Shown here: positions 22,006 to 50,991 of the stretch, in pieces
Position numbering within the stretch: position 1 is the first letter of the stretch
Layout: the number at the start of each line of letters is the position of its first letter
Notes under the pieces: model-generated
The model's database searches: none
What the model was told of the DNA's origin: nothing
The model's input: only the letters and a program-made list of their open reading frames with translations
Source: Naegleria gruberi
Lineage: Eukaryota
Assembly: GCA_000004985.1 (NCBI GenBank)
Contig: GG738903.1
DNA: 64,000 nucleotides
Reading direction: 5' to 3' (one strand)
Position numbers and translations under genes: made by a program

Positions 22006-25000
22006 TTACTTCTTTTTTTTAAATTCTGCAAGTAAAGAATGCGAAAGAACATCCTGAGCTTGAGGCCTTGTTAAATTATCCTTTTCAAGCATGCTCAATA
22101 CTAAATCGATAATTTCGTTCGAATATCTTTCCACCAATGTCTTTCTCAGCATTTGCACAACTTCTTTCTCATCTCTATGTCCATACAATTCGGAGATTGA
22201 CGTGGTTATGTCTTTGGTCATGATCTGATACATAACTACTCCCAAACTAAAGATATCTGCATTAAAGTAGTGTTTGTATACAGACACTATTTCTGGAGAT
22301 GAAAAGATTGGATTTACTTTCGTTCCAAAAACTCCATATCCAAAATCTGAAATTAATGCATGAATATTATCGTTATCCAAACTCTTGATGAGTAAATTGG
22401 AATGTTTGATGTTTGCATGAATGCATTTTTCAACACAATGTGAATATTCCAAACCTGTACATATTTGAAAAATGATCTGTTTCACTAACTTTTCAGAAAC
22501 ATTAAAGTTTCGATTAGTCAACTTGCTGAAATCACCCATTTCGAAATAATCCATATCAATGCAAATCTTTTGATCTATTGTACTCACGAAAATCTCATTA
22601 ATTTTACAAATATTTGGATTGGTAGTATTCAGTAGATGAACGGCTTGATTAAGGAATTTGTTCACATCTTCCTCAGATTTGTATTTGACAATTTTGATTG
22701 CTTTTGAACAATTCTTGACAGAATCGATTACTTTAAAGACATTTCCACTTCCAATTCTTGCAATATTGGTATATCTCAAGTGAGGATTGAATTCAGCACT
22801 GATGAAGGCATTTTCTAATTGGAAACTGTAACCACTGCTTGGTTTTAAGTAATATGCTTGAGTTGGAAGATTATCATAGACTAATTCAATATCTCCAGAG
22901 TTGATAGTAGCAACATTGGAAAGAGTTTCCGTTCTTGGTTGTTTCTTTTTCATTCTCCAAACAATGCAAATCAAGAGAATGATAACAATAATGATAATTA
23001 GAATAACAACAAATGCAACTGGAACTGCAATAGCTGCTGCAAGAGCACCTGTATCCATTCCTTGTTGAGCATTATCAGGATTTCTGTTATTACTCAATTC
23101 GGAAATTGGTGAAGATGGTTCTGTAACTATTGGAGGAATTGCTGGGTTGATAATATATGGTAATTCTTGAATGGTGAATAAACTGAGGTGGGATACTTGA
23201 CATTCTAAATCAAAATATAACAAGTCTCCATTTCGTTTTGTTATAGTTACAGAGCTGCTAATTCCTGATTGAGACCAACTTTTCGAATTATCAAGAAAGA
23301 CGCAGGATGCATTGATACCAGTCTTGTTAGCTGTAACAAGTCCTTCAAATTTGAAAATAATAGGATCTGCCAGATTGTCAACCTTCACTCCATTTCCATT
23401 CTTGTCATAAATTGACAAATCCAAAGATGGCCTCACTGAAAGAATATTTCCATCATTGGTGTCATTGGTAATCATTGTTAAGGCATAGAAAATCATAGAT
23501 TTTGATCCTAAATTTTGAACTTGTTCTGAAAATTTGCTTGGGAAGGTAATTTTCACATTCAACAAATCTTTGGAAATGGAAACTGATTTGGAATTGAATT
23601 GTTTTTCAAGTTGAAGGATTTGAGTGGAGATTAATCCATCAGAGGAGGATTTTCCTGTGAGTTTGTAGTAATCTAAATGATACTTGGCTAATTCTCCTTG
23701 CTTTGTTGCGTTATTGGAAAAAGTGTTCGAAAGAATGGTCATTAAACTTGAAATTTCATCAAAGTTCTTTGAATCTAACAGAGTTTTGTAAACATTGGAG
23801 GAATAATAGGAACGTGCTTGATTCATAGAAGCGAATATCCAGTCCATCCACCAAACTATTTCAGAACTAGTTGAAACTGAGAACTTTTCTAATAGATTAA
23901 AGATAGTCGAAATTGAAGGCAGAATTAATTGAACAATCTTTTCATCAGCGTTGTAGCTTAATGAAGGAATATCTTTCAGAGCACTCAACATATCAATAAG
24001 AATGGAAACTGCTTCTCTCTTTGCATCTTGTGAGATTATTCTTTCGGCGACATTATTCAAAGTTTCGTCTTGAGTAATTAATGATATTAAGGCATTTACA
24101 GAATTAATTGTATCTACAGTCAGTGGTTTGGATTGTCTCAGTGCAGCAAATTCATTACTGACATAATTAATTCTAGAAAGAAGTGAATTATTCGAAATAT
24201 CAATTTTTTCTGGCAATAGAGATGGCAAGTTATTTCTAAATTCACTCACAGTTCCAAATTCATTGATCATTTTCACAACCAAAACTAAACTTTGTTGATT
24301 GAAGAATGGTAAGTGAGTCACAATTGTATTTTTCAAACTATTCGAAAGGACAAATAATCTTTCATTTTGTGAGTGAACTTCCATTACAATACTAGAAATG
24401 GAATCTTGTGGAAGTGTTAAACAACTAATAGAAACCAAAGTTTCATGAGCAATAATATCCCTTTCGTTTTTCACTGTTTCTAATAAACAAGTAAATCTTG
24501 GTTTCATATCGATTCTAGTAGAAAGTGTCAACTTGGAAGAGCCATCTGTATTTGTAGTTTCCAATTCAAATTCGTAAAATTCACCTTCAATAAGATATTC
24601 TTTTCCAATATTAAGGTAAACTTCTAGGGAGTTTCCAACAAGAATATTAGAAACTGTGAAAAGTTCAAGATTTGGAGAATTTCTCAATTTTCCATTCAAG
24701 ACTTTCCAATTCAAAGTAACTAAACTTTCAGATTCGACCACACAATATAACGAAAGATTCTTTCCTTCTGGATATACTGATGGAATGTAATCTGGTGTTA
24801 ACTTAGGAACAGAAGTGGCAGAGTTGACCAATTCAATGTAACCAAAATAGGAGAAGGTACTTTCCGCTGTCGTAACATTGGTTCCTATCAAATAGATACC
24901 TTCAAAGAATCCAAGAGAATTAAAATCCGTTTCTAATTGGCAAGATGTTCCTTGACATAAATTATTCGAAACATCCATAATTGACTTGTCTAAAGTTCTG

Positions 25001-28000
25001 TAACAATACCAAGAATAAGATTTTGTAATAGAAGAAACGAAAGGATCATCACTTTCTAATGCAATTGTTAACTTTCCTGAATTTAGAGAAATAGTTCTGT
25101 TAACATTAGTTAATCTCAAGTCAATTGAATTGATTGGTGACTTTTTGATAGGATAGTCGATATTTAGAGTTGATTTAGATTCCCTATGCGTACCTATTAC
25201 CTTAAAAGTTGACAAATTTTCTTGTGGAATTCTTATCATTTGCTTATTAGAAAGCTCTGTATTTATCATTCCAGATACATCATACGAAAGTGAAGTATTT
25301 AATGACAGAGGAGATACTTCAAATAAACAATTATATCCTTTACATTCAAGATTATCAATCAAAACATTAAAGGAAGGAATAAGTTGTCCTTCTGGGTTGA
25401 CTTGAAGATTTTTAACACTTGAAGTCGAAATATACTTCTCATTAGTCGTATTCATCACAATATCGAATACATTCGGAATATCTTTCAATATACTCTTTGG
25501 AATACTAATAACTGTCTTGTTTGCATAATTGACCAAGGTGGAAGAAACAGTTTCAATGGAGGAAGACCAAATTTGAGAAATTTTCTTGAAATGATGATAT
25601 GAAGGTGGAATGTATGATCTGATAATCAAGTCCTGAGAGGATGGAATCAAATCTACGAGTTGCTGAATGGATGGAGTGGAAGGAGTTTGAGGAATTTCAA
25701 AGTCAACTTGGAGTTGAATTCCAAATGTTGTCTTGATAATTGAACCAGTTTCAATTAGATGATTATATCCTAAATAAATCTTGAGATTATTTCTTCTCCA
25801 TTGACATTTAAGCAAGTCAACTTGACCAAATTTGGAAATATCATTTTCTTGAATGAAATTTTCACATCCTTCAACTACAGATTCATTCAAAAACATGTTC
25901 AATACATTAGAATAGGAATAAATTATAGCATTATCAACATCCATTTGAACACTGAGATATTGACATTCATTTCCAACGAAACCTTTCAAACATTCACAAT
26001 TGTTTGGAGATTTACATTGGCCATTACCTGAACATACATTTGAATCAATTTCTGACTTGGAATAGCAAACATTGTATTGACAGTTTCCTCCTGTGAATCC
26101 AGTTTTGCATGAGCATTCGTCTGGTTTCAGACATTTACCCTTTCCAGAACAAACACTTTCGTTATTCGAAAGAACTCCATTACATTTGGCCAGAGAACAT
26201 TCTAAACCGTTCCAACCATTATTACATGTGCAATTATTGTAACTAGAGCATTTGCCATGACCAGAGCAAACATTTGGCATGTCAAAAGTCAGAGAATAAC
26301 ATTTGATTTTGTCACATTTGTCTCCACCCCATTCTTCTGAGCAAGTACAAGTACCACTAGTTAAGCATTGATAACCATTTTGACAAATGCTCTTATTAAC
26401 CCTTGAACAATTGAAAATGTCACAATCCAAACCAAAATAACCCAATTGACATTCACAAACATCTGGAGATTGACATGTGCCAGAAGCAGAGCAAACAGAT
26501 TGATTCAAACTTGATACACCAAAACAATCAAATAAATCACATAAACTTCCTCCATATCCTGAATCACATTTACAAATAGCAATTCCAGTTTCGTTTAAAC
26601 AAGTTCCATTTACACATTGTAAAGTACATGGATTTGGAATTTCACAATTGTATCCATAGTGGCTTGATTTACATGCACAAGTGTCTTTGTCTGTACAATT
26701 ACCGTGACCAGAACAAACTGTAGAGTTGAGTGAATTCACTCCATAACAGTTGAATTTTTCACATTCTTTTCCATAGTAACCTTCTTGACATGTGCAGTTA
26801 TCAAGTGATGAGCAGATTCCTCTTGATGAACAAACTGAAAGTGAGTCTTGAGCCTTTCCATAACAATCAAATTTTTCACAATTTTGTCCATAGTAAGGTT
26901 TTGTACAATTACATGTATCGATATTGGAACAATTACCATGTGATGAACAAACATCCTTCTTATCATTTCTTACACTGAAACAATCATAATACTGACAACT
27001 TTCTCCATAGAAACCTTGTTGACAAGAACAATTATTCAATGAGAGACACACTCCTTTTCCAGAACACACATTCGAATTGAGTGAGCTAACATTATAGCAA
27101 TTAAACTTTTCACACTCTTTGCCATAATAACCTTCCTTGCATGTGCAGTTATCAAGAGAAGAGCAGATACCTCTTGCTGAACAAACATCTCCCATATCAT
27201 TTCTGATACTAAAACAATCATAATATTGGCATCTTTCTCCATAGAAACCTTGTTGACAGGTACAGTTATTCAGGGAGACACAAACTCCCTTTCCAGAACA
27301 AACAGTTGAGTTGAGTGAGGAAACATTATAGCAGTTGAATTTTTCACATTCTTTTCCATAATAACCTTCTTGACATGTACAATTATCAAGTGATGAGCAG
27401 ATTCCTCTTGAAGAACAAACTGAAAGTGAGTCTTGAGCCTTTCCATAACAATCAAATTTTTCACAATTTTGTCCATAATAAGGTTTTGTACAATTACAAG
27501 TGTCAATATTTGTGCAATTACCATGTGATGAACAAACATCTCTCTTATCTTTTCTAACACCATAGCAATCGAATAATTCACAATTGCTTCCATAAAACCC
27601 TTGTTGGCAGGTACAATTGTTAGCAGAAACGCAACTTCCTTTTCCTGAACAAACTGTAGAGTTGAGTGAATTCACTCCATAACAGTTGAATTTTTCACAT
27701 TCTTTTCCATAATATCCTTCTTGACATGTGCAGTTATCAAGTGATGAGCAGAATCCTCTTGAAGAACAAACTGAAATCGAATCTTGAGCCTTTCCATAAC
27801 AATCAAATTTTTCACAGTTTGTTCCATAGTAAGGTTTTGTACAATTACATGTATCGATATTGGAACAATTACCATGTGATGAACAAACATCCTTCTTATC
27901 ATTTCTTACACTGAAACAATCGTAATACTGACACTTTTCTCCATAGAAACCTTGTTGACATGTACAATTATTCAATGAGAGACAAACTCCCTTTCCTGAG

Positions 28001-29612
28001 CAAACATTCAAACTAGTGTTCTTGACACCAAAGCAAGAAACTAATTCACAGTTACTTCCATGATATCCTTCAGAGCATGAACAATTGTTAGGAGAAACAC
28101 ATCGACCTTTCGAATAGGAACAAACTTCTGGACTAGTGGCCAAAATATTCGAACATTTAGGAACGTTACAATTGGAACCACCATACATTTCGGTACAGTT
28201 ACAAACTCCAGGTGCTAGACAATTTCCATTTCCTGAACATACGCTTGGAGAATTTGCCAAAACATTTCCACATTTGTGAATGTCACAATTTTGACCTCCC
28301 CAAAAAGTTGAATTCCAACATGAGCAATTATTTGCATAGACACATGTACCAATTCCAGAACAAACACTAGTATCATTAGCCATTATATTATTACATTTAG
28401 GAATTTCACAAAATTCTCCTCCCCAAAGTGAACTATTGAAACAATTACAAATGTCAAAATTCAAACAAACACCTCTTCCAGAACAGACATCTCCACTATA
28501 TTGGGGATAACCGAAACATACAGCTACACATTCATTCATAGTAGCATTGTATACATAACCTCCTGTGCAATAAGGTTCAATTTTTCTAATACGGAGATTA
28601 CCAGTATCTTTTTCAAAGTATTCGAAATATAAATTCTTCACTACTACTTACCAAGAATAAAAATATGACCTTCTGAACTAACATCCACATCATAGGTATT
28701 ATTCATCTTTACCAAATCACTTCCAGGAGTTTTAGCAACGCCTGAAAATAATGAAATTGTAGCTAAATTTTGGGTACCAGTAGTTCCATAAGAAAATTTC
28801 ACAACACGAACAACATGATTTCCTCTGTCAGCAATGTAAAGATCCTTGTTGGGTCCATAAGCAACTCCAGTAGGTGCGTTATACAAGGCATTGAATGCAC
28901 TGCCATCGGCATAACCAGCAGACCCAACACCTAAATAGGAAGTAGCTCCAGAGCCTGTCCTAATTAAACGATGAGTACCTGGTTCAGCAAAAGTCATTTC
29001 AGTACTAGAAAAGGCTGCGACTCCAGCGGATAGAGAACCTTGTACAATAAGTTGCTGAGTAGAGATGAAATTATTAGCTTTCGTATACTTTCTAACTCTG
29101 TAATTCAATGAATCTGAAAAGTAAATATTGCCATTTGGAAGTGAGGTAACATATTTCGGCTGATTTAGGTATGCATTTGTAGGGAGGGTATTCAAATCAT
29201 TGGCAACACCAGAAACTCCACATTTTCCAATAATTGTTTTAATCTGTCCATTGCTTACTTCTCTAATGACATGATTTAAAGTGTCAGCAATCAATAACTT
29301 TCCTTCTGATGTAACACATATACCACCTGGATAATTCAGCATGGCACCTGTAGCTGTAGTATTAGTGTCGTTTCCAGCAATTCCAGTTCCTGCCACGATT
29401 GTTACTTTCAATGTTGTCAAATCTAATCTTTTCACAAGGTGGTTTTTGGAATCTGAAATGAAAAGTTCATTATTATTACCAACAGCAATTCCTTCAGGAG
29501 AGTTGAAACCTTGTAGGTAGATGTGAGTGATGTTGTACAGAGGTGCAATAGAGTTGACTAAACTCAAGTGCAATAGTATTAGAAACAAGACGAAAGTAAT
29601 GAGTCTTGCCAT
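22006..29612 (-). CDS. giant receptor-kinase-like protein: signal peptide–NHL repeats–about 25 EGF-like repeats–about 1000-aa extracellular region–TM–pseudokinase
   Basis: Two track ORFs, 28644..29612 (signal peptide plus NHL repeats) and 22006..28641, are joined by a 44-nt phase-1 intron 28608..28651 (GTAAGTAG…AAAAG). The join is in frame: …FILG|DTGNLRIRK…. CDS = complement(join(22006..28607,28652..29612)). The TM is ALAAAIAVPVAFVVILIIIIVIILLICIVW. In the C-terminal kinase-like domain the VAIK lysine and DFG are kept, but the catalytic loop reads HANIKHSN (Asp to Asn, about 22411..22419) and APE is SPE. Confidence 0.7.
26650..28000. repeat. intragenic tandem repeats: near-identical three-EGF blocks (units of about 348 and 588 bp, combined period 936 bp) inside the giant receptor gene
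   Basis: The protein block DCYGKAQDS(I/L)SVCSSRG(F/I)CSSLDNCTCQEGYYGKECEKFNCY…CQQGFYG…DVCSSHGNC(S/T)NIDTCNCTKPYYG(Q/T)NCEKF recurs at least four times. The track shows near-identical out-of-frame ORFs 936 bp apart (26736..26966 vs 27672..27902; 26790..26978 vs 27726..27914). Boundaries are approximate. Confidence 0.7.
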
Positions 29613-41900: not shown

Positions 41901-44671
41901 AAAGAGATAATGAAACTAGATTAAGAATGTTAGACCTTTTGAAGGCTAATCTTGATGCTCCTGGAGAAAACTTGAGCCATTTATTATGTGGATTTGATGT
42001 TTCTAATGACGAACCAAGAGAAATCGACATTTTCAATGAAAAGACTTGTCTCACAGTAATTCTTAACTTGTTGAAATCTAAACAATTACCAATTACTCAT
42101 CCAAGATTTATTGAATCATGTTATGAACTTATTTACAAGTTGTGTGCTGATAGAAGAGTTAGTCAACAAACATTTGCTTGCCTTGAAAAGGCCAACTTTT
42201 TGATTGATAAGTTGAAGAATGCTAACTTCTCCACAAAGATTGAACCGTCACCTCTTGCCCATCATATTCTCAACCAAAGAGGTTTTGTTATTAGAATTGT
42301 TGCTCTCAAATTATACTCTAACACAAAGGCATTCAAGAAGGGTGATAGTAACAGAGGAGGTGTTCAAGAATTGGTACACATTCTTTTTGGTGGTGACTCA
42401 CTTTCTGATTTCAGTCGTTCTTACGATTTACTTGAGCAAAGAAGAGCCCTCATGCTCGAAATTTTGGACACTATCGACTTGAACTTGGCTCAAAATGCTC
42501 CTGCACAAGATTCAAAGGAGTGGAAACTTTTCTTGAAGAATTGGGCATCAACTTCTAACTCATTCGATGGATGGAAACAAGTAGTAGAAATTACTTTGTC
42601 CCAATGTTTTGGTATGATTCCGGATGATGGAATGAGACTGAGAATATTGCACGATATTATTAGTTCATTGCTTTTCAAACTTTTCCAAATGAAGAGAATT
42701 AACAAAGGTAAACAACAACAAAAATTGGAACTTTTGGTTTCTCAAGTAATTTTGAGAGTCATGTCCAAGTTAAGAGAGGAATTCATTACTAGTGGTGAAG
42801 TCATCATGCTTCCAGTTGATCAATGCCTCACAATTTTCAGAAATTTACTTGAATGCATTTTACTTTCTGAACAAAGTGAACAATCCATAAGAGGTAATCT
42901 TTACTCTACACTTATCAACTATTTGCAATACACCAAGAGAAACGAGCTTAACTATGGAAGTGATCAAATAATGAATCTTCAAAAGAATACTGAACACATT
43001 ATTGACAAGTATGACTTGAGAGTTTTCGCCCTTGTAGCTAAGGATGCATTGGATGCTAAGAACATTTGGAAGGCTGTTTCTTACTCCCTTTTGGAAACTT
43101 TCTTCACATACACCACTAACATTGCCCAAAGAGGTAAATGGATCACTTACTTTGAGTCAAGTGGATGTTTGAAACAAATTTTGGATAGTGTTATGACAGA
43201 AGCCAAACATTCCTTGCCTAAGGTGTTACAACCAACCCTTCACGATACTGATGCCTCTTCTTTAAACAGACTTTTCATTTATGAAAATGCTATGTCATTC
43301 CTTCTCAAGTTTACTGATGTTGATGTTAAGAGTGCTGAAATTATGATGAGCTTTGAAGTTATTACCAAGATTTGCTCGCATTTCACCTTTATCGATTTGA
43401 GACCTTCAATTGTTTCTCATCAATATGGCAGAAAGATGGATATGGAAGATGATATGGAAGCTGACTGGGAGCCTTCTATCACTGAAAAATATAATCAACT
43501 TGTTATTCCTGCAATTAAGCTCATTGTCGCCATTCAATCACATATGAGAATTAATAAGAAGGTTGCTGAACAAGTCTTGTCATTTGTTGAGCTACACAGA
43601 AAGTCAATTTCTGCAATTCTTAAGATGGAAAATATTCAAAAGAATTTGATTAATATTGATTCGGGTTCTTTGGAATTGGTTCGTTTGGTTACAGAGATGA
43701 TGTATCTTTTGTCTCTTCATCAAGACGTTATGTCTTCTAAATTACATACTAATAAGTATGAAAAGTTAATGTTGAACGCGTTGGTTAAACTGAATACTAT
43801 TCAACAATTGGGATCTACGAAGAAGACTATCAATATTCTTGATGCCAACATGGCTGATGAAAATGGTATCAGAACTGGAGAGCTGCAATTCGAGTATAGT
43901 TTGGAACAAAAGAGATGTTGTATTGACGAAATTTGTAAAACAATAATCAATTTCTGTAGAGTAGTATGTCAATACCCAGAATTCTTAACTAGTGGATCAA
44001 GTTTGGAACTGATAGGAAAAGTTCTATTTACCCATTTTATTTCTGGACCAAATTCAGCTTCAGGTAAACAAATGGCCTTGGATGAAGATATTATTCCAAA
44101 GCCATTCGAGCTTGACCAAAGACCATCTATTCATGTACTTGGTTTGTTGTTGCAAAATGGATACCATAGATTGAACAATGCTCTCGAGGAAAGATTTACT
44201 TGTGAATCCAACTTGCAACAATTGGATCAATTGAAGATTGAACAATTGAATAATATTGTTCGTTCAGCAAACACAATTTTAGGAGAAGAACATTTCTTAA
44301 GCTTCTTTGAAAAACAAGACAGTGTTCCAAATGAAGCCAAGTTGCTTTGCCGAACAATTCTTTCCAGAAAATTACTTAAACTTGATATCCACCTCAACAC
44401 TCACATCAGTTTGTTAGAAAATACTTTGATTGTTTTATTCAGACACATCAGTTTCTATGTACAAAATAGAGAATCTCCATTATCTGCTGAGCAAAGAACA
44501 CAACTCTTACAAGAAGCAACAACTGGAACACTCAACAAGTTGTTGGATGAAATTCTCCAAATGCAAATTCCAAAATCTTTACTTCAAAGATATTCCACAG
44601 TTGACAATATTTTCCATTTGACTATTGCTCAACGTCTTAAAAACCTAATTTTCCAAGTTAACATTGAATAA
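38916..44671 (+). CDS. NUP205: nucleoporin Nup205/Nup192 homologue (three exons)
   Basis: CDS = join(38916..39068,39113..39286,39329..44671), with introns of 44 and 42 nt (GTATGT…TAG; GTAAGT…TAG). The spliced N-terminus …VDIKGVPSTLPDSLKELVLQVSDALNLNELVALSLIFTA… aligns with human NUP205 as I recall it (…RLLPEQLIKEAFILSDLFDIGELAAVELLLAG…). Internal matches are FTPFLKFIQEDVFNNFSKRYYKDQSDKWLIAKSCLQIFTKLL against FDPYLQFLRDSVFLRFRTRAYRRAAEKWEVAEVVLEVFYKLL, and YELIYKLCADRRV against CYQVIYQLCACSD. Confidence 0.75.
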
Positions 44672-44805
44672 ATTATTGAATTGAAATCTTTATTATGAAA
44701 CTTGATGTTGGTTGGACAGATGAACTTGAACGTTGGTACTGTAATTGTATTACAGAAACACGAAAGGCCCATTTATTTTTTGGCTTTTCTCACACAGAAA
44801 AAACA

Positions 44806-47800
44806 ATGAAAAAGGTATTTGGTAGTTACCATTGCCAACTTTTAGTTTTGTTGGCTTTTTGCATGTGTTTTGTGCAATCAACAAATATTTATCAATCATC
44901 TTCATCAAATTCCTCTATTTATTATAATAATTTGGCCACCTATAGTGTTCAAACAATTATTGGATATCCGAGGCCATTGCAAAATTACTTTCCGAGTGGT
45001 TTGCCAGCCACTTACTATTGGGGATTATCAATACAGGCAATTGTATTGCCACGAAATGGTGATGGAAGTTTACATGGTGATGAAATTATTTACATCTCCT
45101 CCATGGAAATAATTTACAAATATTCAAAACAAGATGGACTATTGAGAAAGTTATCATTTAGTGGTGAGAAATGGTATGATATTTCATCATTCTTTGTTTT
45201 GAAAACTCAGGAAGGAGGAACTTTAATATATGTTACTTCCAATAGACTCGAGTCGACTGTTTATTCGGCAAGTGAAGAAAGTGGAACTGTTCAGAGGATT
45301 GCAGGTTCTTTGAGTTCATCGGGATATAATGGTACGTAATGGAGTAAATTGATTTTGTAATATGAGAATGTACATTGTAAAGGTGATGGAAAACCAGCTA
45401 TCGATTCCTTACTGAGCCAACCTCAATCTGTATTTGTTAAGGATGGTGAGGTTTATATTTGTGATACAAATAATCATCTGATTCGACGTATTGATAGGAA
45501 TGGAATTTTATGGAATGTTTTTCGTAAGTGTGTGTTAATTTTCAATTTATTTAAAACATTTAATATTTCTAAAAACAGAAAAAGGGTTTGTAAGGGAACC
45601 ACAACAACTAATTTTTGCAGGGAATGATATGGTAGTAAACACAGGCAATTTGATTCTTAGAATATTTCCCAATCAAACATATGAAACTCATTATGCTTTC
45701 TATTCATTTTCTAAAGCTGCTGTTTTTGAAAATGATATCTACTATATCAATTATGGTAGTATCCAGAAGGCAATTGGTTCATATTCCTCTGAGACTGTGT
45801 TAGTGTTTGAAAAATCTGCCAAAATTCCTAGAATTCTAACAATCAACAATGAGGGAAATTATTTAGTTTCAGTTGGAAACGTTTTAAAAGAATTTCAGAG
45901 ATATAATGATAGTATTGGAAGAGTTGTGATTGGAACATCGGATTCTAATCTTCAATACTATACATTACCAGCAAATATCTCAGATATTCAAAACGTTGAA
46001 TCGATGACACTTTGTGAAGAGGACAATTCCATTATTTTCACTCAACATTCGTCTTCTGTTATAAGACATTATGTTCCAAACAAACCATTCATGGATGTTG
46101 TTGGAATGAATGTGGATAAGATATCTTTTATTTCAAAGTATGGGAATGATATGTATGCAATTGTGAATAATAATATTTACTTGAGGAATAACCAAGGAAA
46201 TTTCACTCAATTATCAGGATTGCTATCACCAGTCAATGTACCTGATAATATTAAGGCAACATTATCAACCTTAAACAATCCTAGAGGAATATTTCTTAAA
46301 AACCAAAAACTGTACATTTCTGATTCGAATAATCATAGAATACGAGTAATTGATATACAAACTGGACTTATTTCTACATTGGCAGGAAATGGAATTGCAA
46401 ATTTTAGTGGTGATGGGCTAGCCGCAACAGAAGCATCCCTAAACTCTCCATCTGGTGTATTTGTTTCAGAGTTTGGAAAAATTTATATATCTGACTCTGG
46501 TAATCATAGAATTAGAGCTATTCTTCCAAATGGCATTATTTCAACTGTTGGAGGTAATGGTATTCCTGGATTTTCGGGTGATAATGGTTTGGCTACTAAT
46601 GCAAGTCTTAACAACCCCTATGGCATAGTTGAAACATATAGTGGTGACTTGATTATTTCTGATTCTGATAACAATAGAATTAGACTAATCGATAGATATG
46701 GAATTATCACAACTCTAGCTGGAACAGGAGAGAAAGGATTCCAGGATGGATTCTTTCTCGACGCGTTATTTAACAATCCATCTCAATTATTTTACTTCCA
46801 TTCCCGCTTGTACATTTCAGATACATATGGCCAAAGGATTCGTGAAGCAAATCTTGAATCAAAAACCGTAAAAACAATTATTGGAACAGGAGAGAAGGGA
46901 TACAATGGAGATAATTTCCCAACCACCACTCAGCTCAATAACCCTCTATCAATGTTTATTACATATAATAATATTATTTACATTGCAGATACTGACAACA
47001 AGAAAATAAGAATGTTGAATACGGGTATTGTATCAACACTAGAGCTTACTTTTGAATCTCCAAAGGGAATAACTGGAGATGATAAATTTCTCTATATCAC
47101 CGATGGGAATTTAGTTAAGAAAATTGATATTGCCAATGGTTATAGAGTTGAAATTATTGGAGGTGGAATTGGTGATGGTTGGTACTTGAAGTATGCAATT
47201 CTTAATGCTGAAAACCTTGCTTTTGATGATGAGAAGAATGTTTATTTTACAGATTCTTCTCATAATGTTGTAAGAAAGTTCAATACAATGAATGGAATAG
47301 TGAGTACAGTAGCAGGAAGGACTAGTACATTGGGATATGAAGGTAAGTTTCAATTACTACTAATATCTCATTAAAAAAACAACAGGTGATGGTGGATTGG
47401 CTGTTGGGGCTCTCTTAAATTTTCCAAAAGGTATTGCAGTTTCCAAGTCGAGTTTAGGATTCTTTCTCTATATTTGTGACTTTGAAAATCAACGCATTCG
47501 AAGAGTTAATTTGGAAACTGGAATAATAACAACAGTAGTAGGTACAGGTCAAAAAGGATATAGTGGTGATGGAGGGTTAGCAATTTATGCCAAGATTACT
47601 AATCCAACACATATAGCTGTCAACAAGGAAGGAGAAGTTTTCTTCTCAGATTACAATTATGTAAGGAAAATAACAAGAAATGGATATGTTTATAGAATAT
47701 CTGGTGCTCAAGGAGGAACTGATTTTAATGGAGATTCATATCCTGCTTTGGAAACAGGTTTCAGTATTACAAGTAAGTATTTTATCTCCGTTTTGAAATT

Positions 47801-49429
47801 CATATTTCAATTCAGAAACTTTAATGGTAGATAATACTGGAAGTATTGTTGTTTTCGATTATAACAATCAAATTATTAGAAAGTTAATTCCTCACTGTGA
47901 AACTGGCTATAGTTTGGAACCTGAAACTAATTCTACATGCATTCCAAATTGTTTTGGAATTTATGGAAAAACAATTAATGCTTGTTCTTCACATGGATTT
48001 TGTAAAAGTTTAGATCAATGTGAATGTTATTCTGGTTATTCTGGATCAAATTGCTCAGAATCAATATGCTTTGGTAAGACGGGATCTGGAGCATGTAATG
48101 GCAAAGGAATTTGTGTTTCACCAAATGTTTGTCAGTGCTTGGATGATTATTCAGGTATTGATTGTTCGATACCTAAAACAGTTTTAATTTTAGTTGGAAG
48201 TTTGATTGCTTGTGGCTTGGTTATTGTAATAGTTTTTGTAATTTCTGTTTCAATGGTCTTTGTCTATATTCAAAATCAAAGAAAGAAGAGAGCAATCCTC
48301 ATGACTGACAAATTATTAGACAAGAGATTGCTTATGGATGATTTTGCATCCTATAATTCTTCAATGGGGATCAGTAATAGTGAACTCAATGAAGCAGATT
48401 TTGTTATTCCACTGGAACAGTTGGATATGGATCATCCAATCAAGAGGATTGGTGAAGGTTCTTTTGGAAGAGTATTTTCTACAAAATGGGGAAACCAATT
48501 AGTTGCCGTTAAGGTTGTGGACATGAATGATTTTGACATGTCGGAGGAAACTTTCAAACAAGAATTTCAAATCTTGTCACGTTTAAGACATCCAAAAATT
48601 GTCTCCTTCTATGGCATTTCATTTTCTCCAACGAAGAGATATATTGTTATGGAGCTTTGTGAACACAGCTTGGAACATGTCATTAGTCAATTGCAGAATC
48701 AAGTTATTCAAATGGATTTACAGGAAAAGATTGATATTCTAATAGATATTATTGAGGGAGTGAATTATTTACATACCTTGACTCCAAAATGCCTTCATAG
48801 AGATTTGAAACCCCTCAATATTCTTGTGAGCTTTCAGAAAGAATACAAATTATGCGATTTTGGTGTTGGAAAGATTTTAAACTCAAAAACTGTCAATTCT
48901 TTGACCAACAATGGTAAGTTTCAATGAAATTGTTCTCAATATTTAATTATATTCACAAAACACAATAGTGGGGACGTGTTACTATATGGCTCCAGAAACT
49001 ACAGGATGTGAAAGTTTACAAGAATCTGAATCAGTTTGTGCTACTTCAATAGATATTTACAGTCTGGCCATTATTTTCTACCAATTATTATTTGAAGTGA
49101 AAGAGCCCTATATTTCATGTCATGATAGAGTTTTGAAAAAGTTGAAAATGAATGAACCACTACAATTGACTAACATGTACCATTTGCATAGATTAGTGAT
49201 TGAGAAAAACCTCAGACCTATCATTCCATTTTCTTCTGCAAAGGAATGTCAACAATGGTGTCAGGAATATCTATCACCAACAGATGCCAAATATCATAGC
49301 ATTTTCTATGAGATTTGTCAATTAACTAAACTATGTTGGGATAAACAACCAAAAACGAGACCAAGTGCAAAAACTATTTTAGAACGACTCCATGGTTGGA
49401 AGAAAGAAATTGAAACAAAGTATTACTAA
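44806..49429 (+). CDS. receptor Ser/Thr/Tyr-type kinase: signal peptide–NHL repeats–EGF-like module–TM–active kinase (six exons)
   Basis: CDS = join(44806..45331,45383..45523,45579..47342,47386..47772,47816..48913,48969..49429), with introns of 51, 55, 43, 43 and 55 nt, all GTA(A/C)GT…AG and phase 1. It re-joins track ORFs 44695, 45629, 47397, 47824 and 48968. NHL repeats look like ISDSNNHRIRVID. EGF-like cysteines CxCxxGYSGSNC are present. The TM is LILVGSLIACGLVIVIVFVI. The kinase has IGEGSFGRV, VAVK, HRDLKPLNILV, DFG and GTCYYMAPE, the last spanning the final intron. The acceptor of intron 4 has an alternative in-frame site 15 nt downstream. Confidence 0.7.
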
Positions 49430-49493
49430 GTATTTAGTTAATTAGTAATTTAATAAACTTCAGTTGAATTATTCAGTTGTTTCTTTCGAATAA

Positions 49494-50727
49494 TTATTCT
49501 GAACTTGAGGATGAGGCAGTAGATACTTGTATAACTTTGCACTTTTCAAAAACTCTTTTGAATGCCAAATAGTTGGATTGATCTTTTCCATCTTCCAAAA
49601 TAGCAAACACAATACTCTTAAAACTATTTGGAAATTCCTGAGTTATTACTTCATAAAACAATTTAGCCATATGATTTTCTGAAATAAATTGAATTCAATA
49701 AAACAAATAATTAAATAATTAACTTACCTGGATTCTTGTATGCTCCACATCCAAAAGCACTCAACACAATACTCAAATGTCCATTATTAAGAGCTGCATA
49801 AAGAATTCCTCTAATTTTCTGTCTTGTTCCTTCCTCAAACTTGCTCGTCATCATGAGTTGATTTGTCTTTTTATCTAAAAAGGTATTTGGTCTAATGAAA
49901 GCACTTGCTGCAATGATTGAAATTTCCAATGGTTGATCCAAATATTCGAAAGCACTTCCTTCTCCGTGTCTTAATAATTGAACATTGGGTGAGTAAATGA
50001 TATCATAATCAGAAAGTGGATAGAACTGATCTGGGCCAATAACTGAAACTATTTGTTGATCAGGGGAAGGTTTCTTACAATTTGGATTAAACTTTTTGAA
50101 AATATCATTTGGATCTAATAGAGAATAAATGTAATTTGTTGATCTGAAGAGAGCTTCTTCTTGACTTTTCTGTCCAGTTTCAAAACCTCCACCAGCTCTC
50201 TTCTTACTTGCCATATTTAGCACAACTGGATTCATTCCATTTTTGTGTAATTTGAAAATAGTTTCAACACAATCTTCCTTAATTACTTCAATGGTAGTAG
50301 CAAATTGTTGATTAGTAGAGGTGGAATTGAAGACAATCTTCTCAATTTCATTAAATTGATATAACTTATTCTTTGCCAATTGTTGCTCATAAATTTCTTT
50401 ATCCAAGTTTCTAATAGAAACTTTCTCCTTCTTTGAATTATAATAAAACCCTCTCTGTAATGACAACATTGTATCCTTCATGACATAAATCCTCATTCCC
50501 TTCAATGCATCTGGATTATTCTCATTCAAATATCGTTGATGCCACTTTCTAAAAACAACCGAATTAAAAACTGGTGATTGTAACAATAATTTATCCGCAT
50601 TTTCTTGAATTTGATTATAGCTCTGATCAAGAGGATCCGATAAATCAATAGATTGTTGCTGATTTCCCTTTGGATTATTTGCTGATTTATCATCCGATGA
50701 TTTTCCTGGTTTCTTGTTTTTTACCAT
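49494..50727 (-). CDS. bacterial-type poly(ADP-ribose) glycohydrolase-like macrodomain protein (DUF2263/TIGR02452 family; two exons)
   Basis: CDS = complement(join(49494..49678,49728..50727)), with a 49-nt intron (GTAAGTT…TTTCAG). The signature VLNMASKKRAGGGFETGQKSQEEALFRS (GGG-x7-QEE) and the C-terminal SAFGCGAYKNP|ENHMAKLFYEV are characteristic of microbial-type PARG. The track's upstream extension to 50937 runs through poly-T promoter-like sequence, so I start at MVKNKKPGKSS. Confidence 0.65.
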
Positions 50728-50991
50728 TTTTTTTTTATTTTTTTTTAAAGTTTTAATTTTTTCAAATTGGAAATTGAAATTTAGCCAAGTTTTAATTTTC
50801 AAATTCAAATTTAACTTCAAGGCAACTTCCTGGAGTAAAATCCAAATTTCACAGGAAAGAATAAACCCTATTATATTCATATTGCCATTTCGAATAATAT
50901 TAACTCCTAACATTTTACAATAAATTAATATGACCAATAATACGATAGAATCAAGTAGATCAATAATCTATTTAAACGAAAGTGAAATAAT

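What the first reader, a model, noticed from the sequence alone, without database searches (positions are those of the whole stretch)
44806..49429. Paralogous NHL–EGF–TM–kinase receptor with an intact catalytic core, assembled from five track ORFs across 43–55-nt phase-1 introns
Every joint is in frame and reconstitutes a conserved motif; for example GTCYYMAPE spans the last intron. The gene lies 15 kb from its giant pseudokinase paralogue on the opposite strand. This indicates a lineage-specific receptor-kinase family with NHL beta-propeller ectodomains.
Basis: partly seen in the sequence, partly recalled or inferred. Interest (0 to 1): 0.5.

Follow-up and report, generated by a model that had tools for sequence, protein, structure and literature searches.

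The report
Naegleria NHL-propeller receptor protein kinase
This is a real, intact, six-exon gene of the amoeba Naegleria gruberi for a cell-surface receptor whose outside is built of NHL beta-propellers and two EGF modules and whose inside is an active-looking Ser/Thr kinase; it belongs to an uncharacterised receptor family of Naegleria and its relatives, which is interesting but not a new principle.

Summary
The window is Naegleria gruberi NEG-M. Window 44806-49429 (+) encodes a 1458-aa type-I membrane protein, or 1444 aa with an alternative acceptor. Its order is signal peptide, at least 11 recognisable NHL blades, a Cys pair, 2 teneurin-type EGF modules, one TM helix, and a protein kinase with every catalytic motif intact.

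It has six exons and five GT-AG phase-1 introns of 51, 55 (or 97), 43, 43 and 55 nt. A 99.4%-identical second strain shows introns diverging 8-fold faster than exons, 1-nt indels only in introns, and dN/dS 0.10. The gene is therefore spliced as proposed and under purifying selection.

Corrections:
- There are six exons, not five ORFs.
- GTCYYMAPE lies just after the last intron; it is the DFG...APE segment that spans it.
- The intron 2 acceptor is ambiguous.
- The 15-kb "paralogue" shares the NHL-EGF-TM-kinase layout, but its kinase is only 24% identical. It is a true pseudokinase. The nearest paralogue is D2VDH5, elsewhere in the genome.

Relatives occur in N. gruberi, N. lovaniensis, Percolomonas and Acrasis, some with RCC1, Kelch or SBBP propellers instead of NHL.

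The most likely function is a ligand-gated TKL-like receptor Ser/Thr kinase with an unknown ligand. It is a new variant of a known kind, of moderate interest.

The parts
44806..45331 (+). Exon 1. The start codon is at 44806. The signal peptide MKKVFGSYHCQLLVLLAFCMCFVQ occupies 44806-44877. The rest is a divergent N-terminal ectodomain.
   Evidence: An upstream in-frame ATG at 44695 lies only 24 nt after the stop of the Nup192-like gene and would bury the signal peptide. No differences from strain L002 in the overlapping 388 nt.
45332..45382 (+). Intron 1. 51 nt, GTACGT..AAG, phase 1. It splits the Gly codon of the inter-blade motif GYN-G-DG.
   Evidence: In-frame TAA at 45337-45339 (ORF end). 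One strain difference. Gap-free alignment to D2VDH5 across the junction.
45383..45523 (+). Exon 2. 141 nt. It encodes one clear NHL blade, residues 184-223.
   Evidence: Best Pfam NHL stretch at residues 186-210. Self-HMM blade 184-223, i-E 1e-21.
45524..45578 (+). Intron 2, minimal version. 55 nt, GTAAGT..ACAG, phase 1.
   Evidence: Two strain differences including a 1-nt indel.
45579..45620 (+). Ambiguous 42 nt. Either the first 14 codons of exon 3 (QKGFVREPQQLIFA) or the 3' part of a 97-nt intron 2 ending at the acceptor TTTTTGCAG at 45620. Both versions are in frame and phase 1.
   Evidence: There are 2 radical nonsynonymous strain differences in these 42 nt, against 0 in 2251 nt of flanking exon (P=3e-4). 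The segment is indistinguishable from introns (P=0.62). Pfam does not discriminate between the two versions.
45621..47342 (+). Exon 3, unambiguous part. A divergent beta-rich region followed by NHL blades.
   Evidence: Continuous ORF. The AF2 model of the exon 3 translation has pLDDT above 90 for residues 220-585, forming 4-stranded blades. Foldseek best matches are NHL propellers: bacterial teneurin-like protein 9ifo at 1.7e-24, then NHLRC2 and SOQ1.
47343..47385 (+). Intron 3. 43 nt, GTAAGT..ACAG, phase 1. It sits at the same place in the repeat unit as intron 1 (GYE-G-DG).
   Evidence: A 1-nt indel between strains. Gap-free alignments to L001 and D2VDH5 across the junction.
47386..47772 (+). 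Exon 4. NHL blades.
   Evidence: Four strain differences, all synonymous.
47773..47815 (+). Intron 4. 43 nt, GTAAGT..TCAG, phase 1.
   Evidence: Two strain differences. The L001 homologue is uninterrupted here.
47816..48913 (+). Exon 5. In order: the last NHL blade; a Cys pair (47890-47940); two EGF modules (47944-48165); the TM helix, residues 1061-1091 (48178-48270); the basic stop-transfer QNQRKKR; the juxtamembrane segment; and the kinase N-lobe through DFG (48439-48913).
   Evidence: One uninterrupted ORF links EGF, TM and kinase. Pfam EGF_2, EGF_Teneurin and Pkinase. Hydropathy. Motif coordinates.
48914..48968 (+). Intron 5. 55 nt, GTAAGT..ATAG, phase 1. It lies in the kinase activation segment between DFG and APE.
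   Evidence: Three strain differences. P0135, P0136 and D2VDH5 align across the junction without gaps (NNVGTCYYMAPE against SQIGTCYYLSPE, NQLGTHFYMSPE and NQIGTFYYMSPE).
48969..49429 (+). Exon 6. The kinase C-lobe: APE at 48989-48997, a family-specific insert with RPIIPF, and CW..RPS. Stop codon TAA at 49427-49429.
   Evidence: Four strain differences, all synonymous.
22006..29612 (-). Distant family member, 2520 aa. Two exons, 29612-28652 and 28607-22006, joined across a 44-nt phase-1 intron. Order: signal peptide, one NHL propeller, about 30 EGF modules, about 1000 aa of unassigned ectodomain with a GPS-like CxxSHLSLF, a TM helix, and a pseudokinase.

Best explanation
Window 44806-49429 (+) is a functional six-exon gene of Naegleria gruberi for a type-I single-pass receptor protein kinase.

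Shown by sequence:
- An N-terminal signal peptide.
- An ectodomain of about 1035 aa. It holds at least 11 statistically clear NHL blades, about 18 by eye, which fits two canonical six-bladed propellers plus one degenerate one.
- A Cys pair and two teneurin/tenascin-type EGF modules as a membrane-proximal stalk.
- One TM helix followed by a basic stop-transfer sequence.
- A juxtamembrane segment of about 55 aa.
- An RD-type eukaryotic protein kinase with all catalytic residues present.

The HRDLKPLN loop and the best matches (CTR1, plant Raf/STY, MLK, ILK, RLK-Pelle) point to a TKL-like Ser/Thr, possibly dual-specificity, kinase rather than a tyrosine kinase.

Inferred mechanism:
- The propellers bind an extracellular ligand. 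Candidates are a bacterial or prey surface component, a glycan, or another cell's surface protein.
- Binding changes receptor oligomerisation.
- The cytoplasmic kinases trans-phosphorylate the Ser/Thr-rich activation loop (GKILNSKTVNSLTNNVGT) and then downstream substrates.

The gene belongs to a heterolobosean receptor family. The family shares an EGF-TM-kinase part, and the N-terminal propeller type is exchangeable (NHL, RCC1, Kelch, SBBP).
For: Organism:
- Eight neighbouring ORFs are exact matches to N. gruberi NEG-M proteins EFC38921 to EFC38989.

Gene model:
- One ORF after removing five GT-AG phase-1 introns.
- Junctions 1, 3, 4 and 5 align without gaps to homologues that lack those introns.
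- Strain comparison gives 3.6% divergence in introns against 0.45% in exons (P=1e-5).
- Intron-only 1-nt indels occur in introns 2 and 3.
- There are 13 synonymous and 5 nonsynonymous changes, dN/dS=0.10 (P=5.5e-6).

Domains:
- Pfam Pkinase 4e-48, NHL 7.5e-26, TEN_NHL 8e-39, EGF_2 and EGF_Teneurin about 1e-7.
- Eleven NHL blades by self-HMM.
- An AF2 model with pLDDT above 90 over seven blades. Foldseek hits to NHL propellers at 1e-24 to 1e-20.
- PDB sequence hits to the bacterial teneurin-like protein (1e-67), SOQ1, NHLRC2, teneurins and the PknD sensor domain.

Topology:
- Signal peptide, a single strongly hydrophobic 31-residue stretch, then QNQRKKR on the kinase side.
- 9 of the 10 NxS/T sites and all 14 EGF-region Cys lie on the N-terminal side.

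Kinase:
- All catalytic motifs are invariant in the family alignment.
- The closest solved kinase is CTR1 at 1.7e-30.
- Profile hits outside the family are TKL kinases.

Family:
-.
Against: - No transcript, protein or biochemical evidence could be reached. Expression, splice sites (especially the intron 2 acceptor), kinase activity, membrane localisation and ligand are all untested.
- The exact 1458-aa model, and near-identical full-length proteins, were not found in the protein collections. No independent annotation confirms the model. The word-index searches also missed the 99%-identical fragment P0270, so absence is weak evidence.
- The second strain's contig has a 1-nt deletion between the TM helix and the kinase (window 48316). 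If real, the gene is dispensable in that strain. It may equally be an assembly error.
- The TKL assignment is soft. STE20 kinases score almost as well, and Pfam Pkinase scores above PK_Tyr_Ser-Thr.
- The count of three propellers is inferred. Residues 25-183 and 224-451 give no significant NHL hits, and the model is of low confidence there.
Confidence: 0.78

Rival explanations
1. Same gene and function, but intron 2 is 97 nt (45524-45620) rather than 55 nt. The protein would be 1444 aa, with QKGFVREPQQLIFAG replaced by R. One intron would then fall outside the reader's 43-55-nt range.
For: - Both acceptors are in frame and phase 1 (sequence).
- The 42-nt segment carries 2 radical nonsynonymous strain differences (Q223P, G225E). 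The flanking 5' exons carry 0 in 2251 nt (P=3e-4). The segment matches the intron rate (P=0.62).
- ACTAAT followed by T5 and CAG directly upstream of 45620 resembles the ACTAAT in intron 3.
- D2VDH5 has a gap in this region.
Against: - The other six introns seen in this gene, the giant neighbour and L001 are 43-55 nt.
- The segment's base composition looks exon-like by eye (not computed).
- The 14 residues (EPQQLIFAGNDMVV...N.ILRIF) look like the first strand of a degenerate NHL blade.
- The case rests on only two SNPs.
- A search for either spliced junction in metagenome contigs found nothing.
Confidence: 0.5
2. The locus is a decaying or non-expressed pseudogene, one copy of an over-expanded family, rather than a working receptor.
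For: - The L002 strain contig has a frameshifting 1-nt deletion between the TM helix and the kinase.
- No identical annotated protein was retrieved.
- The neighbouring family member has a dead kinase.
Against: - In the window, all six exons are open across 4.4 kb and all splice sites are canonical.
- dN/dS is 0.10, with 13 synonymous against 5 nonsynonymous changes (P=5.5e-6).
- Every catalytic residue is intact and the family-specific motifs are conserved.
Confidence: 0.05
3. The region holds two or more independent genes, for example a secreted or anchored NHL-EGF protein and a separate cytoplasmic kinase, and not one receptor.
For: - Public models of paralogues are often kinase-only. P0135 (303 aa) and P0137 (320 aa) start at an internal Met just before the G-loop.
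- Prokaryote-style gene calls on L001 and L002 split the locus.
Against: - EGF modules, the TM helix, the juxtamembrane segment and the kinase N-lobe lie in one uninterrupted 1098-nt exon.
- The gaps between coding blocks are 43-55 nt with GT-AG ends, leaving no room for promoters.
- D2VDH5, A0AA88GYL3, P0331 and P0377 are single proteins with the same order.
- The kinase-only models look like truncated annotations.
Confidence: 0.04
4. The protein is mainly an adhesion or recognition molecule, in the manner of teneurin or tenascin. On this view the kinase modulates adhesion or phagocytosis, as Entamoeba PATMK does, and the protein is not a classical soluble-ligand receptor.
For: - The ectodomain modules are the teneurin types: TEN_NHL, EGF_Teneurin and EGF_TEN in Pfam. 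Best PDB hits are the bacterial teneurin-like protein and teneurins.
- Relatives carry dozens of EGF repeats and a REJ or GPS-like module typical of adhesion receptors.
- Naegleria is a bacterivorous, substrate-crawling amoeba. Entamoeba transmembrane kinases act in phagocytosis, as cited in PMC4053784 reference B88.
Against: - Nothing in the sequence separates adhesion from ligand sensing.
- The active RD kinase argues that signalling is part of the function in either case.
- This is a refinement of the best explanation rather than a contradiction of it.
Confidence: 0.25

Closest known systems
N. gruberi D2VDH5 (NAEGRDRAFT_66846, 'predicted protein', 1555 aa) and heterolobosean relatives: N. 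lovaniensis A0AA88GYL3, A0AA88KMQ8 and A0AA88GWG7; N. gruberi D2V423; Percolomonas A0A7S1KM06; Acrasis kona A0AAW2Z8L2
   Same: - Same order of parts: signal peptide, NHL propellers, teneurin-type EGF, TM helix, kinase.
- Collinear alignment over 1300 residues (E=1e-166). The kinase is 42% identical.
- They share a C-lobe insert with RPxIPF...W and CW..RP.
   Different: - Only 30% identical overall. The number of EGF modules and blades differs.
- Intron positions differ. L001 has a phase-0 intron before the G-loop and none at this gene's positions.
- Some relatives replace NHL with RCC1, Kelch or SBBP propellers.
- None has been studied experimentally, and all are annotated only as predicted or hypothetical proteins.
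Mycobacterium tuberculosis PknD and PknD-like bacterial Ser/Thr kinases (sensor domain PDB 1RWI/1RWL)
   Same: - A Hanks-type Ser/Thr kinase coupled through one TM helix to an extracytoplasmic NHL beta-propeller sensor.
- The PknD sensor is a detectable sequence match (1.5e-6).
- Bacterial hit P0003 combines Pkinase with C-terminal NHL repeats.
   Different: - Opposite polarity. In PknD the kinase is N-terminal and the propeller C-terminal.
- PknD has a single propeller, no EGF modules and no signal peptide.
- The kinase here is closest to eukaryotic TKL kinases, not to bacterial ones.
- The resemblance is analogous design, not membership.
Teneurins and bacterial teneurin-like proteins (PDB 9IFO, 6FB3; PMC13018210)
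   Same: The NHL propeller and the EGF modules are of the teneurin Pfam types. The best solved-structure match of the ectodomain is the bacterial teneurin-like protein (1e-67 by sequence, 1.7e-24 by fold).
   Different: - No FN-plug, YD-shell, TTR, ABD or toxin domain.
- Type-I rather than type-II orientation.
- The EGF modules follow the NHL domain instead of preceding it.
- It carries a cytoplasmic kinase.
Protist and plant receptor Ser/Thr (TKL-type) kinases: Entamoeba transmembrane kinases, plant RLK/Pelle and Raf-like CTR1
   Same: - Type-I layout with a variable ectodomain, one TM helix and a TKL-like RD kinase.
- CTR1 is the closest solved kinase (1.7e-30).
- RLK-Pelle, ILK, STY and Entamoeba kinases are among the best profile hits.
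   Different: - The ectodomains are unrelated: CXXC repeats in Entamoeba, and LRR, lectin or WAK domains in plants.
- Kinase identity is only 27-33%.
- No phylogeny was made, so common origin as opposed to convergence is undecided.

Membership tests
Eukaryotic protein kinase superfamily, catalytically competent | Gly-rich loop GxGxxG, VAIK Lys, aC Glu, HRD catalytic Asp with downstream Asn, DFG, APE, subdomain IX Asp and subdomain XI Arg | tested here: met
   - GEGSFG 1152-1157, K1172, E1189, HRDLKPLN 1267-1274, DFG 1287-1289, APE 1313-1315, D1334, R1436.
- Pfam Pkinase 164 bits against a cut-off of 31.7.
Eukaryotic protein kinase superfamily, catalytically competent | Measured phosphotransfer activity | not testable with these tools
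   Needs a recombinant cytoplasmic domain and an in vitro kinase assay.
TKL (tyrosine-kinase-like) group of Ser/Thr kinases | The kinase domain is closer to TKL members than to other groups. The catalytic loop is the Ser/Thr type HRDLKxxN. Subdomain XI has CW(x)6RPxF. | tested here: inconclusive
   - The best PDB hit is CTR1 (1.7e-30), but STE20 kinases follow closely at 7e-27.
- The family profile's best outside hits are plant Raf/STY, ILK, MLK and RLK-Pelle.
- CWDKQPKTRPS is present.
- No phylogeny was made.
Receptor tyrosine kinases (metazoan type) | Tyrosine-kinase catalytic loop HRDLAARN and the P+1 loop signature of the TK group | tested here: not met
   The loop is HRDLKPLN. Pfam Pkinase scores above PK_Tyr_Ser-Thr.
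Type-I single-pass receptor kinase | Cleavable N-terminal signal peptide, one TM helix, an ectodomain N-terminal to it and a kinase C-terminal to it | tested here: met
   - Signal-peptide-like MKKVFGSYHCQLLVLLAFCMCFVQ.
- A single hydrophobic stretch at 1061-1091, followed by QNQRKKR.
- Cys-rich EGF modules and 9 of the 10 NxS/T sites lie on the N-terminal side.
- This is a prediction only. No dedicated signal-peptide or TM predictor was available.
NHL-repeat six-bladed beta-propeller | Repeated blades of about 40-55 aa matching PF01436, folding as 4-stranded sheets around an axis | tested here: met
   - Pfam NHL 7.5e-26 and TEN_NHL 8e-39.
- Eleven blades by self-HMM.
- AF2 gives pLDDT above 90 over seven blades.
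- Foldseek TM-score 0.66-0.77, normalised to the target, against NHLRC2 and Pizza6 propellers.
- The number of closed propellers was not determined.
Teneurin / bacterial teneurin-like protein | Superfold of FN-plug, NHL and YD-shell (PMC13018210), and type-II membrane orientation in metazoan teneurins | tested here: not met
   - Only the NHL and EGF modules are present.
- There is no YD/RHS, FN-plug, TTR or toxin hit in Pfam at E<=0.01.
- The orientation is type I.
PknD-like bacterial receptor Ser/Thr kinase | N-terminal cytoplasmic kinase, TM helix, C-terminal extracytoplasmic NHL propeller | tested here: not met
   The domain order is reversed, and EGF modules and a signal peptide are present. 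It shares the design principle only.
Heterolobosean propeller-EGF-TM-kinase family (defined here) | One continuous match from teneurin-type EGF through the TM helix into a kinase that carries the RPxIPF...W C-lobe insert, with an N-terminal beta-propeller region | tested here: met
   - A phmmer search with exon 5 gives single-stretch EGF-to-kinase matches to Naegleria, Percolomonas, Acrasis and metagenomic proteins.
- Collinear alignment to D2VDH5.
- The insert is conserved in the closest members.
- The giant neighbour lacks the insert.

The most novel reading that the evidence does not exclude
Heterolobosean amoebae independently assembled a modular surface-receptor system comparable to plant RLKs or animal RTKs. 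In it, interchangeable beta-propeller sensors (NHL, RCC1, Kelch, SBBP) are plugged onto a common unit of teneurin-type EGF stalk, TM helix and TKL-like kinase. Some members gained REJ or GPS-like modules and dead kinases. The NHL/EGF sensor modules may have come from bacterial teneurin-like or NHL surface proteins by gene transfer. The family would serve prey, bacterium or self recognition. This particular member appears to be missing from the public protein set.
Probability: 0.3. Interest if true: 0.6.

Novelty: new variant of a known kind. Interest (0 to 1): 0.38.

Why it matters
Receptor kinases are the main way plants and animals read their surroundings. How free-living excavate amoebae sense prey, surfaces and each other is almost unknown.

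This gene and its relatives show that Naegleria has single-pass receptors joining large NHL propeller sensors to an apparently active Ser/Thr kinase. Naegleria includes the brain-eating N. fowleri. Until now that sensor-kinase pairing was known from bacterial PknD, which has the opposite polarity.

The family offers three things:
- Concrete candidates for prey or environment sensing.
- A natural case of sensor-domain swapping on a fixed signalling unit.
- Active and pseudokinase members lying 15 kb apart in this window.

It also flags that public gene models for this family are often truncated or missing. That matters for kinome counts and comparative genomics of Naegleria.

Tried and rejected
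1. Full-length homology search. It was swamped by bacterial NHL-repeat proteins and gave no family members or organism. A search with the EGF-TM-kinase part and a family-profile search returned mostly generic kinases. The word index also missed the 99%-identical fragment P0270, so these searches cannot prove the gene is unannotated.

2. Exact look-ups. My 1458-aa model, a kinase-only model and guesses for the two flanking genes are not in the collection. N. gruberi GenBank proteins P0135, P0137 and P0133 are not indexed in the look-up of encoding contigs. The official gene models around the locus could therefore not be read.

I used single-exon translations instead.

4. The metagenome scan for orthologues of the N-terminal 494 aa found nothing. 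The scan for either spliced exon 2/3 junction also found nothing. The intron 2 acceptor remains unresolved.

5. A Pfam comparison of the two intron 2 variants did not discriminate between them.

6. Pfam on the giant's unassigned 950 aa gave no REJ or GPS hit, although a relative (P0308) has REJ and the giant has a GPS-like HLS motif.

7. Literature searches found no description of NHL-EGF receptor kinases in Heterolobosea. They covered Naegleria with NHL, kinome, TKL and receptor kinase; the Acrasis genome paper; and the Naegleria pangenome paper. The 2010 N. gruberi genome paper is not held.

8. Rejected readings:
- A bacterial or viral origin of the window: eukaryotic introns and exact N. 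gruberi matches rule it out.
- A teneurin: there is no YD shell.
- A receptor tyrosine kinase: the loop is HRDLKPLN.

Full report
**Source and setting**

Base composition is 31-36% GC throughout. Eight ORFs of the window are exact matches to Naegleria gruberi NEG-M proteins EFC38921 to EFC38989 on a 304,373-bp scaffold. The window is therefore nuclear DNA of this heterolobosean amoeba.

The finding lies between two genes. Upstream is a Nup192/205-like nucleoporin gene (39395-44671, +; Pfam 1.5e-81). Downstream is a microbial-type PARG gene (49711-50937, -), which is followed by a PARP gene.

**Checking the observation**

From the raw sequence I placed the splice sites and joined 44806-45331, 45383-45523, 45579-47342, 47386-47772, 47816-48913 and 48969-49429. 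This gives one ORF of 4377 nt, or 1458 aa.

- The five introns are 51, 55, 43, 43 and 55 nt.
- All are GT..AG and four begin GTAAGT.
- Their GC is 18-27%.
- All are phase 1.
- None can be read through. Each holds an in-frame stop or shifts the frame (ORF ends).

Pfam finds Pkinase (4e-48, residues 1148-1444), NHL (7.5e-26), TEN_NHL (8e-39), EGF_2 and EGF_Teneurin.

The catalytic motifs are all present: GEGSFG, VAVK (K1172), aC E1189, HRDLKPLN (D1269), DFG and APE.

Three details need correction.

1. There are six exons. The 141-nt exon 2 is indispensable and contains the best NHL hit.
2. GTCYYMAPE sits entirely in the last exon. The intron splits the preceding Val codon, and it is the DFG...APE activation segment that spans it.
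3. The intron 2 acceptor is ambiguous (see below).

**Independent evidence for the gene model**

*(a) Homologues without these introns.* A metagenomic contig (L001) encodes, in one uninterrupted ORF, NHL blades, about five EGF modules, a TM helix and a juxtamembrane segment. A 46-nt GTAAGT..ACAG intron and the kinase follow. N. gruberi D2VDH5 (P0412, 1555 aa) is collinear with my model from residue 140 to 1454 (E=1e-166). Junctions 1, 3, 4 and 5 fall in gap-free stretches of these alignments. One example is NNVGTCYYMAPE against NQIGTFYYMSPE.

*(b) A second strain.* Contig L002, from the same sample as L001, is 99.36% identical to window 44944-49453.
- Introns carry 9 differences in 247 nt, including 1-nt indels in introns 2 and 3.
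- Exons carry 19 differences in 4236 nt (Fisher P=1e-5).
- Coding changes are 13 synonymous and 5 nonsynonymous, giving dN/dS=0.10 (P=5.5e-6).
- This is the signature of a spliced gene under purifying selection.
- L002 also has a 1-nt deletion at window 48316 that would frameshift between the TM helix and the kinase. I cannot tell an assembly error from a null allele.

**Intron 2**

A second acceptor (TTTTTGCAG at 45620) is also in frame and phase 1. It would make intron 2 97 nt and remove 14 residues.

For the 97-nt version:
- Two of the five nonsynonymous strain differences (Q223P, G225E) fall in these 42 nt. The other 2251 exon nt of the 5' half have none (P=3e-4). The segment matches the intron rate (P=0.62).
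- An ACTAAT motif and a T-run precede the distal AG.

Against it:
- All other introns seen in this gene, the giant neighbour and L001 are 43-55 nt.
- The 14 residues resemble the first strand of a degenerate NHL blade.

Neither Pfam nor a junction search in metagenomes decided the question. I rate the two versions as about equally likely. Only transcript data will settle it.

**Anatomy of the protein**

- Residues 1-24 look like a signal peptide.
- A self-built blade HMM finds 11 clear NHL blades: 184-223, and ten between 452 and 975.
- By eye there are about 18 blade-like units, which fits three six-bladed propellers with the first one degenerate. This count is an inference.
- An AlphaFold2 model of the exon 3 translation was built with 31 bacterial homologues. 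It has pLDDT above 90 over residues 443-808 of the protein, forming seven 4-stranded blades. Confidence is low for the N-terminal 136 residues of that exon.
- Foldseek places the model with NHL propellers: bacterial teneurin-like protein 9IFO at 1.7e-24, then NHLRC2, SOQ1, Pizza6 and teneurins.
- Sequence search of the PDB agrees and also finds the PknD sensor domain.
- After the last blade come a Cys pair and two six-Cys EGF modules (983-1056).
- Then follow a 31-residue hydrophobic helix (1061-1091), QNQRKKR, a juxtamembrane segment of about 55 aa, and the kinase.
- EGF, TM and the kinase N-lobe lie in one exon. The ectodomain and the kinase therefore cannot be separate genes.

**What kind of kinase**

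The catalytic loop HRDLKPLN is the Ser/Thr type. The closest solved kinase is the plant Raf-like CTR1 (1.7e-30), followed by STE20 kinases, TNNI3K, ZAK and TAK1.

A 12-member family profile finds plant Raf/STY, ILK, MLK, RLK-Pelle and Entamoeba kinases as its best outside matches. Subdomain XI has CW..RPS.

I call it TKL-like. The group assignment remains inconclusive without a tree.

The closest relatives share a conserved insert in the C-lobe, RPxIPF...W.

**The family**

I ran phmmer with the exon 5 translation against 1.84 billion representatives. Besides many giant EGF-repeat proteins, it returned proteins in which a single match runs from EGF through TM into the kinase. Pfam and name look-ups give:

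| Protein | Source | Domains |
|---|---|---|
| D2VDH5 | N. gruberi | NHL + EGF + kinase |
| D2V423 | N. gruberi | EGF + kinase |
| D2VPM5 (2807 aa) | N. gruberi | Pfam not run; EGF-TM-kinase match; closest relative of the giant |
| A0AA88GYL3 | N. lovaniensis | NHL + EGF + kinase |
| A0AA88KMQ8, A0AA88GWG7 | N. lovaniensis | EGF + kinase (shown for A0AA88KMQ8; A0AA88GWG7 is its cluster mate) |
| A0A7S1KM06 (cluster mate of P0362, which was the one scanned) | Percolomonas | RCC1 + EGF + kinase |
| 'serine/threonine-protein kinase/receptor' (651 aa) | Acrasis kona | Pfam not run; kinase 33% identical by BLASTP |
| unnamed | metagenomes | NHL, RCC1, Kelch or SBBP propellers |

By kinase identity the nearest relatives are P0135 (48%, a kinase-only N. 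gruberi model that starts at an internal Met), L001/P0136 (44%), D2VDH5 (42%) and P0331 (40%).

It can be widened: the propeller is the variable part on a conserved EGF-TM-kinase unit.

**The giant neighbour**

Joining 29612-28652 and 28607-22006 (minus strand) across a 44-nt phase-1 intron gives 2520 aa. The order is:
- signal peptide;
- one NHL propeller (NHL 2.4e-24);
- about 30 EGF modules (TRF period 117 nt);
- about 1000 aa without Pfam hits;
- a TM helix;
- a kinase-like domain (Pkinase 1.2e-31).

Its last blade and first EGF align with the target. Its kinase is only 24% identical (E=3e-4).

Its closest relative is D2VPM5 (36% identity over 1250 aa). Compared with D2VPM5, it has lost three Gly-loop residues, the aC Glu (now Gln) and the HRD Asp (now HAN). 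It keeps the VAIK Lys and DFG.

'Pseudokinase' is therefore justified. 'Paralogue' is true only at the level of the wider family.

**Mechanism**

The following are shown: the topology signals, the modular ectodomain, the intact RD kinase and purifying selection.

The following are inferred:
- The propellers bind an extracellular ligand or surface.
- Occupancy alters oligomerisation.
- The kinases trans-phosphorylate the Ser/Thr-rich activation loop and then substrates.

The ligand is unknown. For a bacterivorous, crawling amoeba, the obvious candidates are prey or bacterial surface molecules, substrate, or other cells. An adhesion or phagocytosis role, as for Entamoeba transmembrane kinases (cited in PMC4053784), is a refinement I rate at about 0.25.

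**Comparison with known systems and novelty**

The design of an NHL propeller sensor, one TM helix and a Ser/Thr kinase is known from bacterial PknD. There the polarity is reversed and there is no EGF.

The ectodomain modules are of teneurin type. However, the defining teneurin superfold of FN-plug, NHL and YD-shell (PMC13018210) is absent.

Type-I TKL-like receptor kinases are well known in plants and Entamoeba, with unrelated ectodomains.

Members of this heterolobosean family are in public databases only as predicted or hypothetical proteins. I found no paper describing them. The 2010 genome paper could not be read.

My exact model, and any near-identical full-length protein, were not retrieved. 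This member may be unannotated. The searches are demonstrably incomplete, so that is not proven.

**Verdict**

This is a real, well-supported gene and a new variant of a known kind. Interest is moderate (0.38).

Noticed in passing
window 22006-29612 (-), residues about 2115-2135 of the 2520-aa product: The giant pseudokinase has a GPS-like motif (ECQVSHLSLF) about 40 residues before its TM helix. Its N. gruberi sister D2VPM5 shares it (ECRSSHLSVF). A related 2331-aa protein (P0308) has a Pfam REJ domain. This hints at a polycystin or adhesion-GPCR-like juxtamembrane module in heterolobosean receptor (pseudo)kinases. Pfam gave no REJ or GPS hit on the giant itself.
   Followed up: partly
window 26740-28006 (-): The giant gene's EGF region is a tandem array. 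The unit is 117 nt (one EGF, 9.3 copies). Super-periods of 234 and 351 nt are 80-84% identical, so the repeats were amplified fairly recently.
   Followed up: partly
window 45331/45383 and 47342/47386: Introns 1 and 3 sit at the same position of the NHL inter-blade motif. Both split the Gly codon in G^GT GAT GG (G-DG). All five introns, and the giant's single intron, are phase 1. The homologue L001 instead has one phase-0 intron, elsewhere. This suggests either intron duplication together with the repeat, or repeated insertion at a proto-splice site.
   Followed up: no
L002 (ENA ERZ929261 k127_395396) against window 44944-49453: Divergence between the two strains is mosaic. The 5' half has 0 exon differences in 2251 nt, and the 3' half has 17 in about 1985 nt. 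L002 also has a 1-nt deletion at window 48316 that would frameshift between the TM helix and the kinase.
   Followed up: partly
L001 (ENA ERZ929261 k127_358704) 3-2611: A second family member comes from the same metagenome sample: NHL blades, about five EGF modules, a TM helix and a kinase. A 46-nt GTAAGT..ACAG phase-0 intron lies between PIK and the Gly-rich loop. Prokaryote-style gene calling split it into two 'genes'.
   Followed up: yes
window 49711-50937 (-) and 50992-53460 (-): A microbial-type PARG gene (Pfam 2.2e-31) lies directly next to a PARP catalytic-domain gene (4.1e-23). They form an ADP-ribosylation writer/eraser pair on the same strand.
   Followed up: no
window 9050-11413 (-): An intronless 787-aa protein has an N-terminal kinase domain (6.8e-26) followed by ten DUF4116 repeats (4.5e-142). 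The exact ORF was not on record in the contig index.
   Followed up: no
proteins P0135 and P0137 (N. gruberi GenBank models): The public models of the closest paralogues are kinase-only (303 and 320 aa). P0135 starts at an internal Met just before the Gly-rich loop (MDKPIKRLGSGG..., compared with DMDHPIKRIGEGS here). The ectodomain exons of these genes were probably missed in annotation.
   Followed up: no
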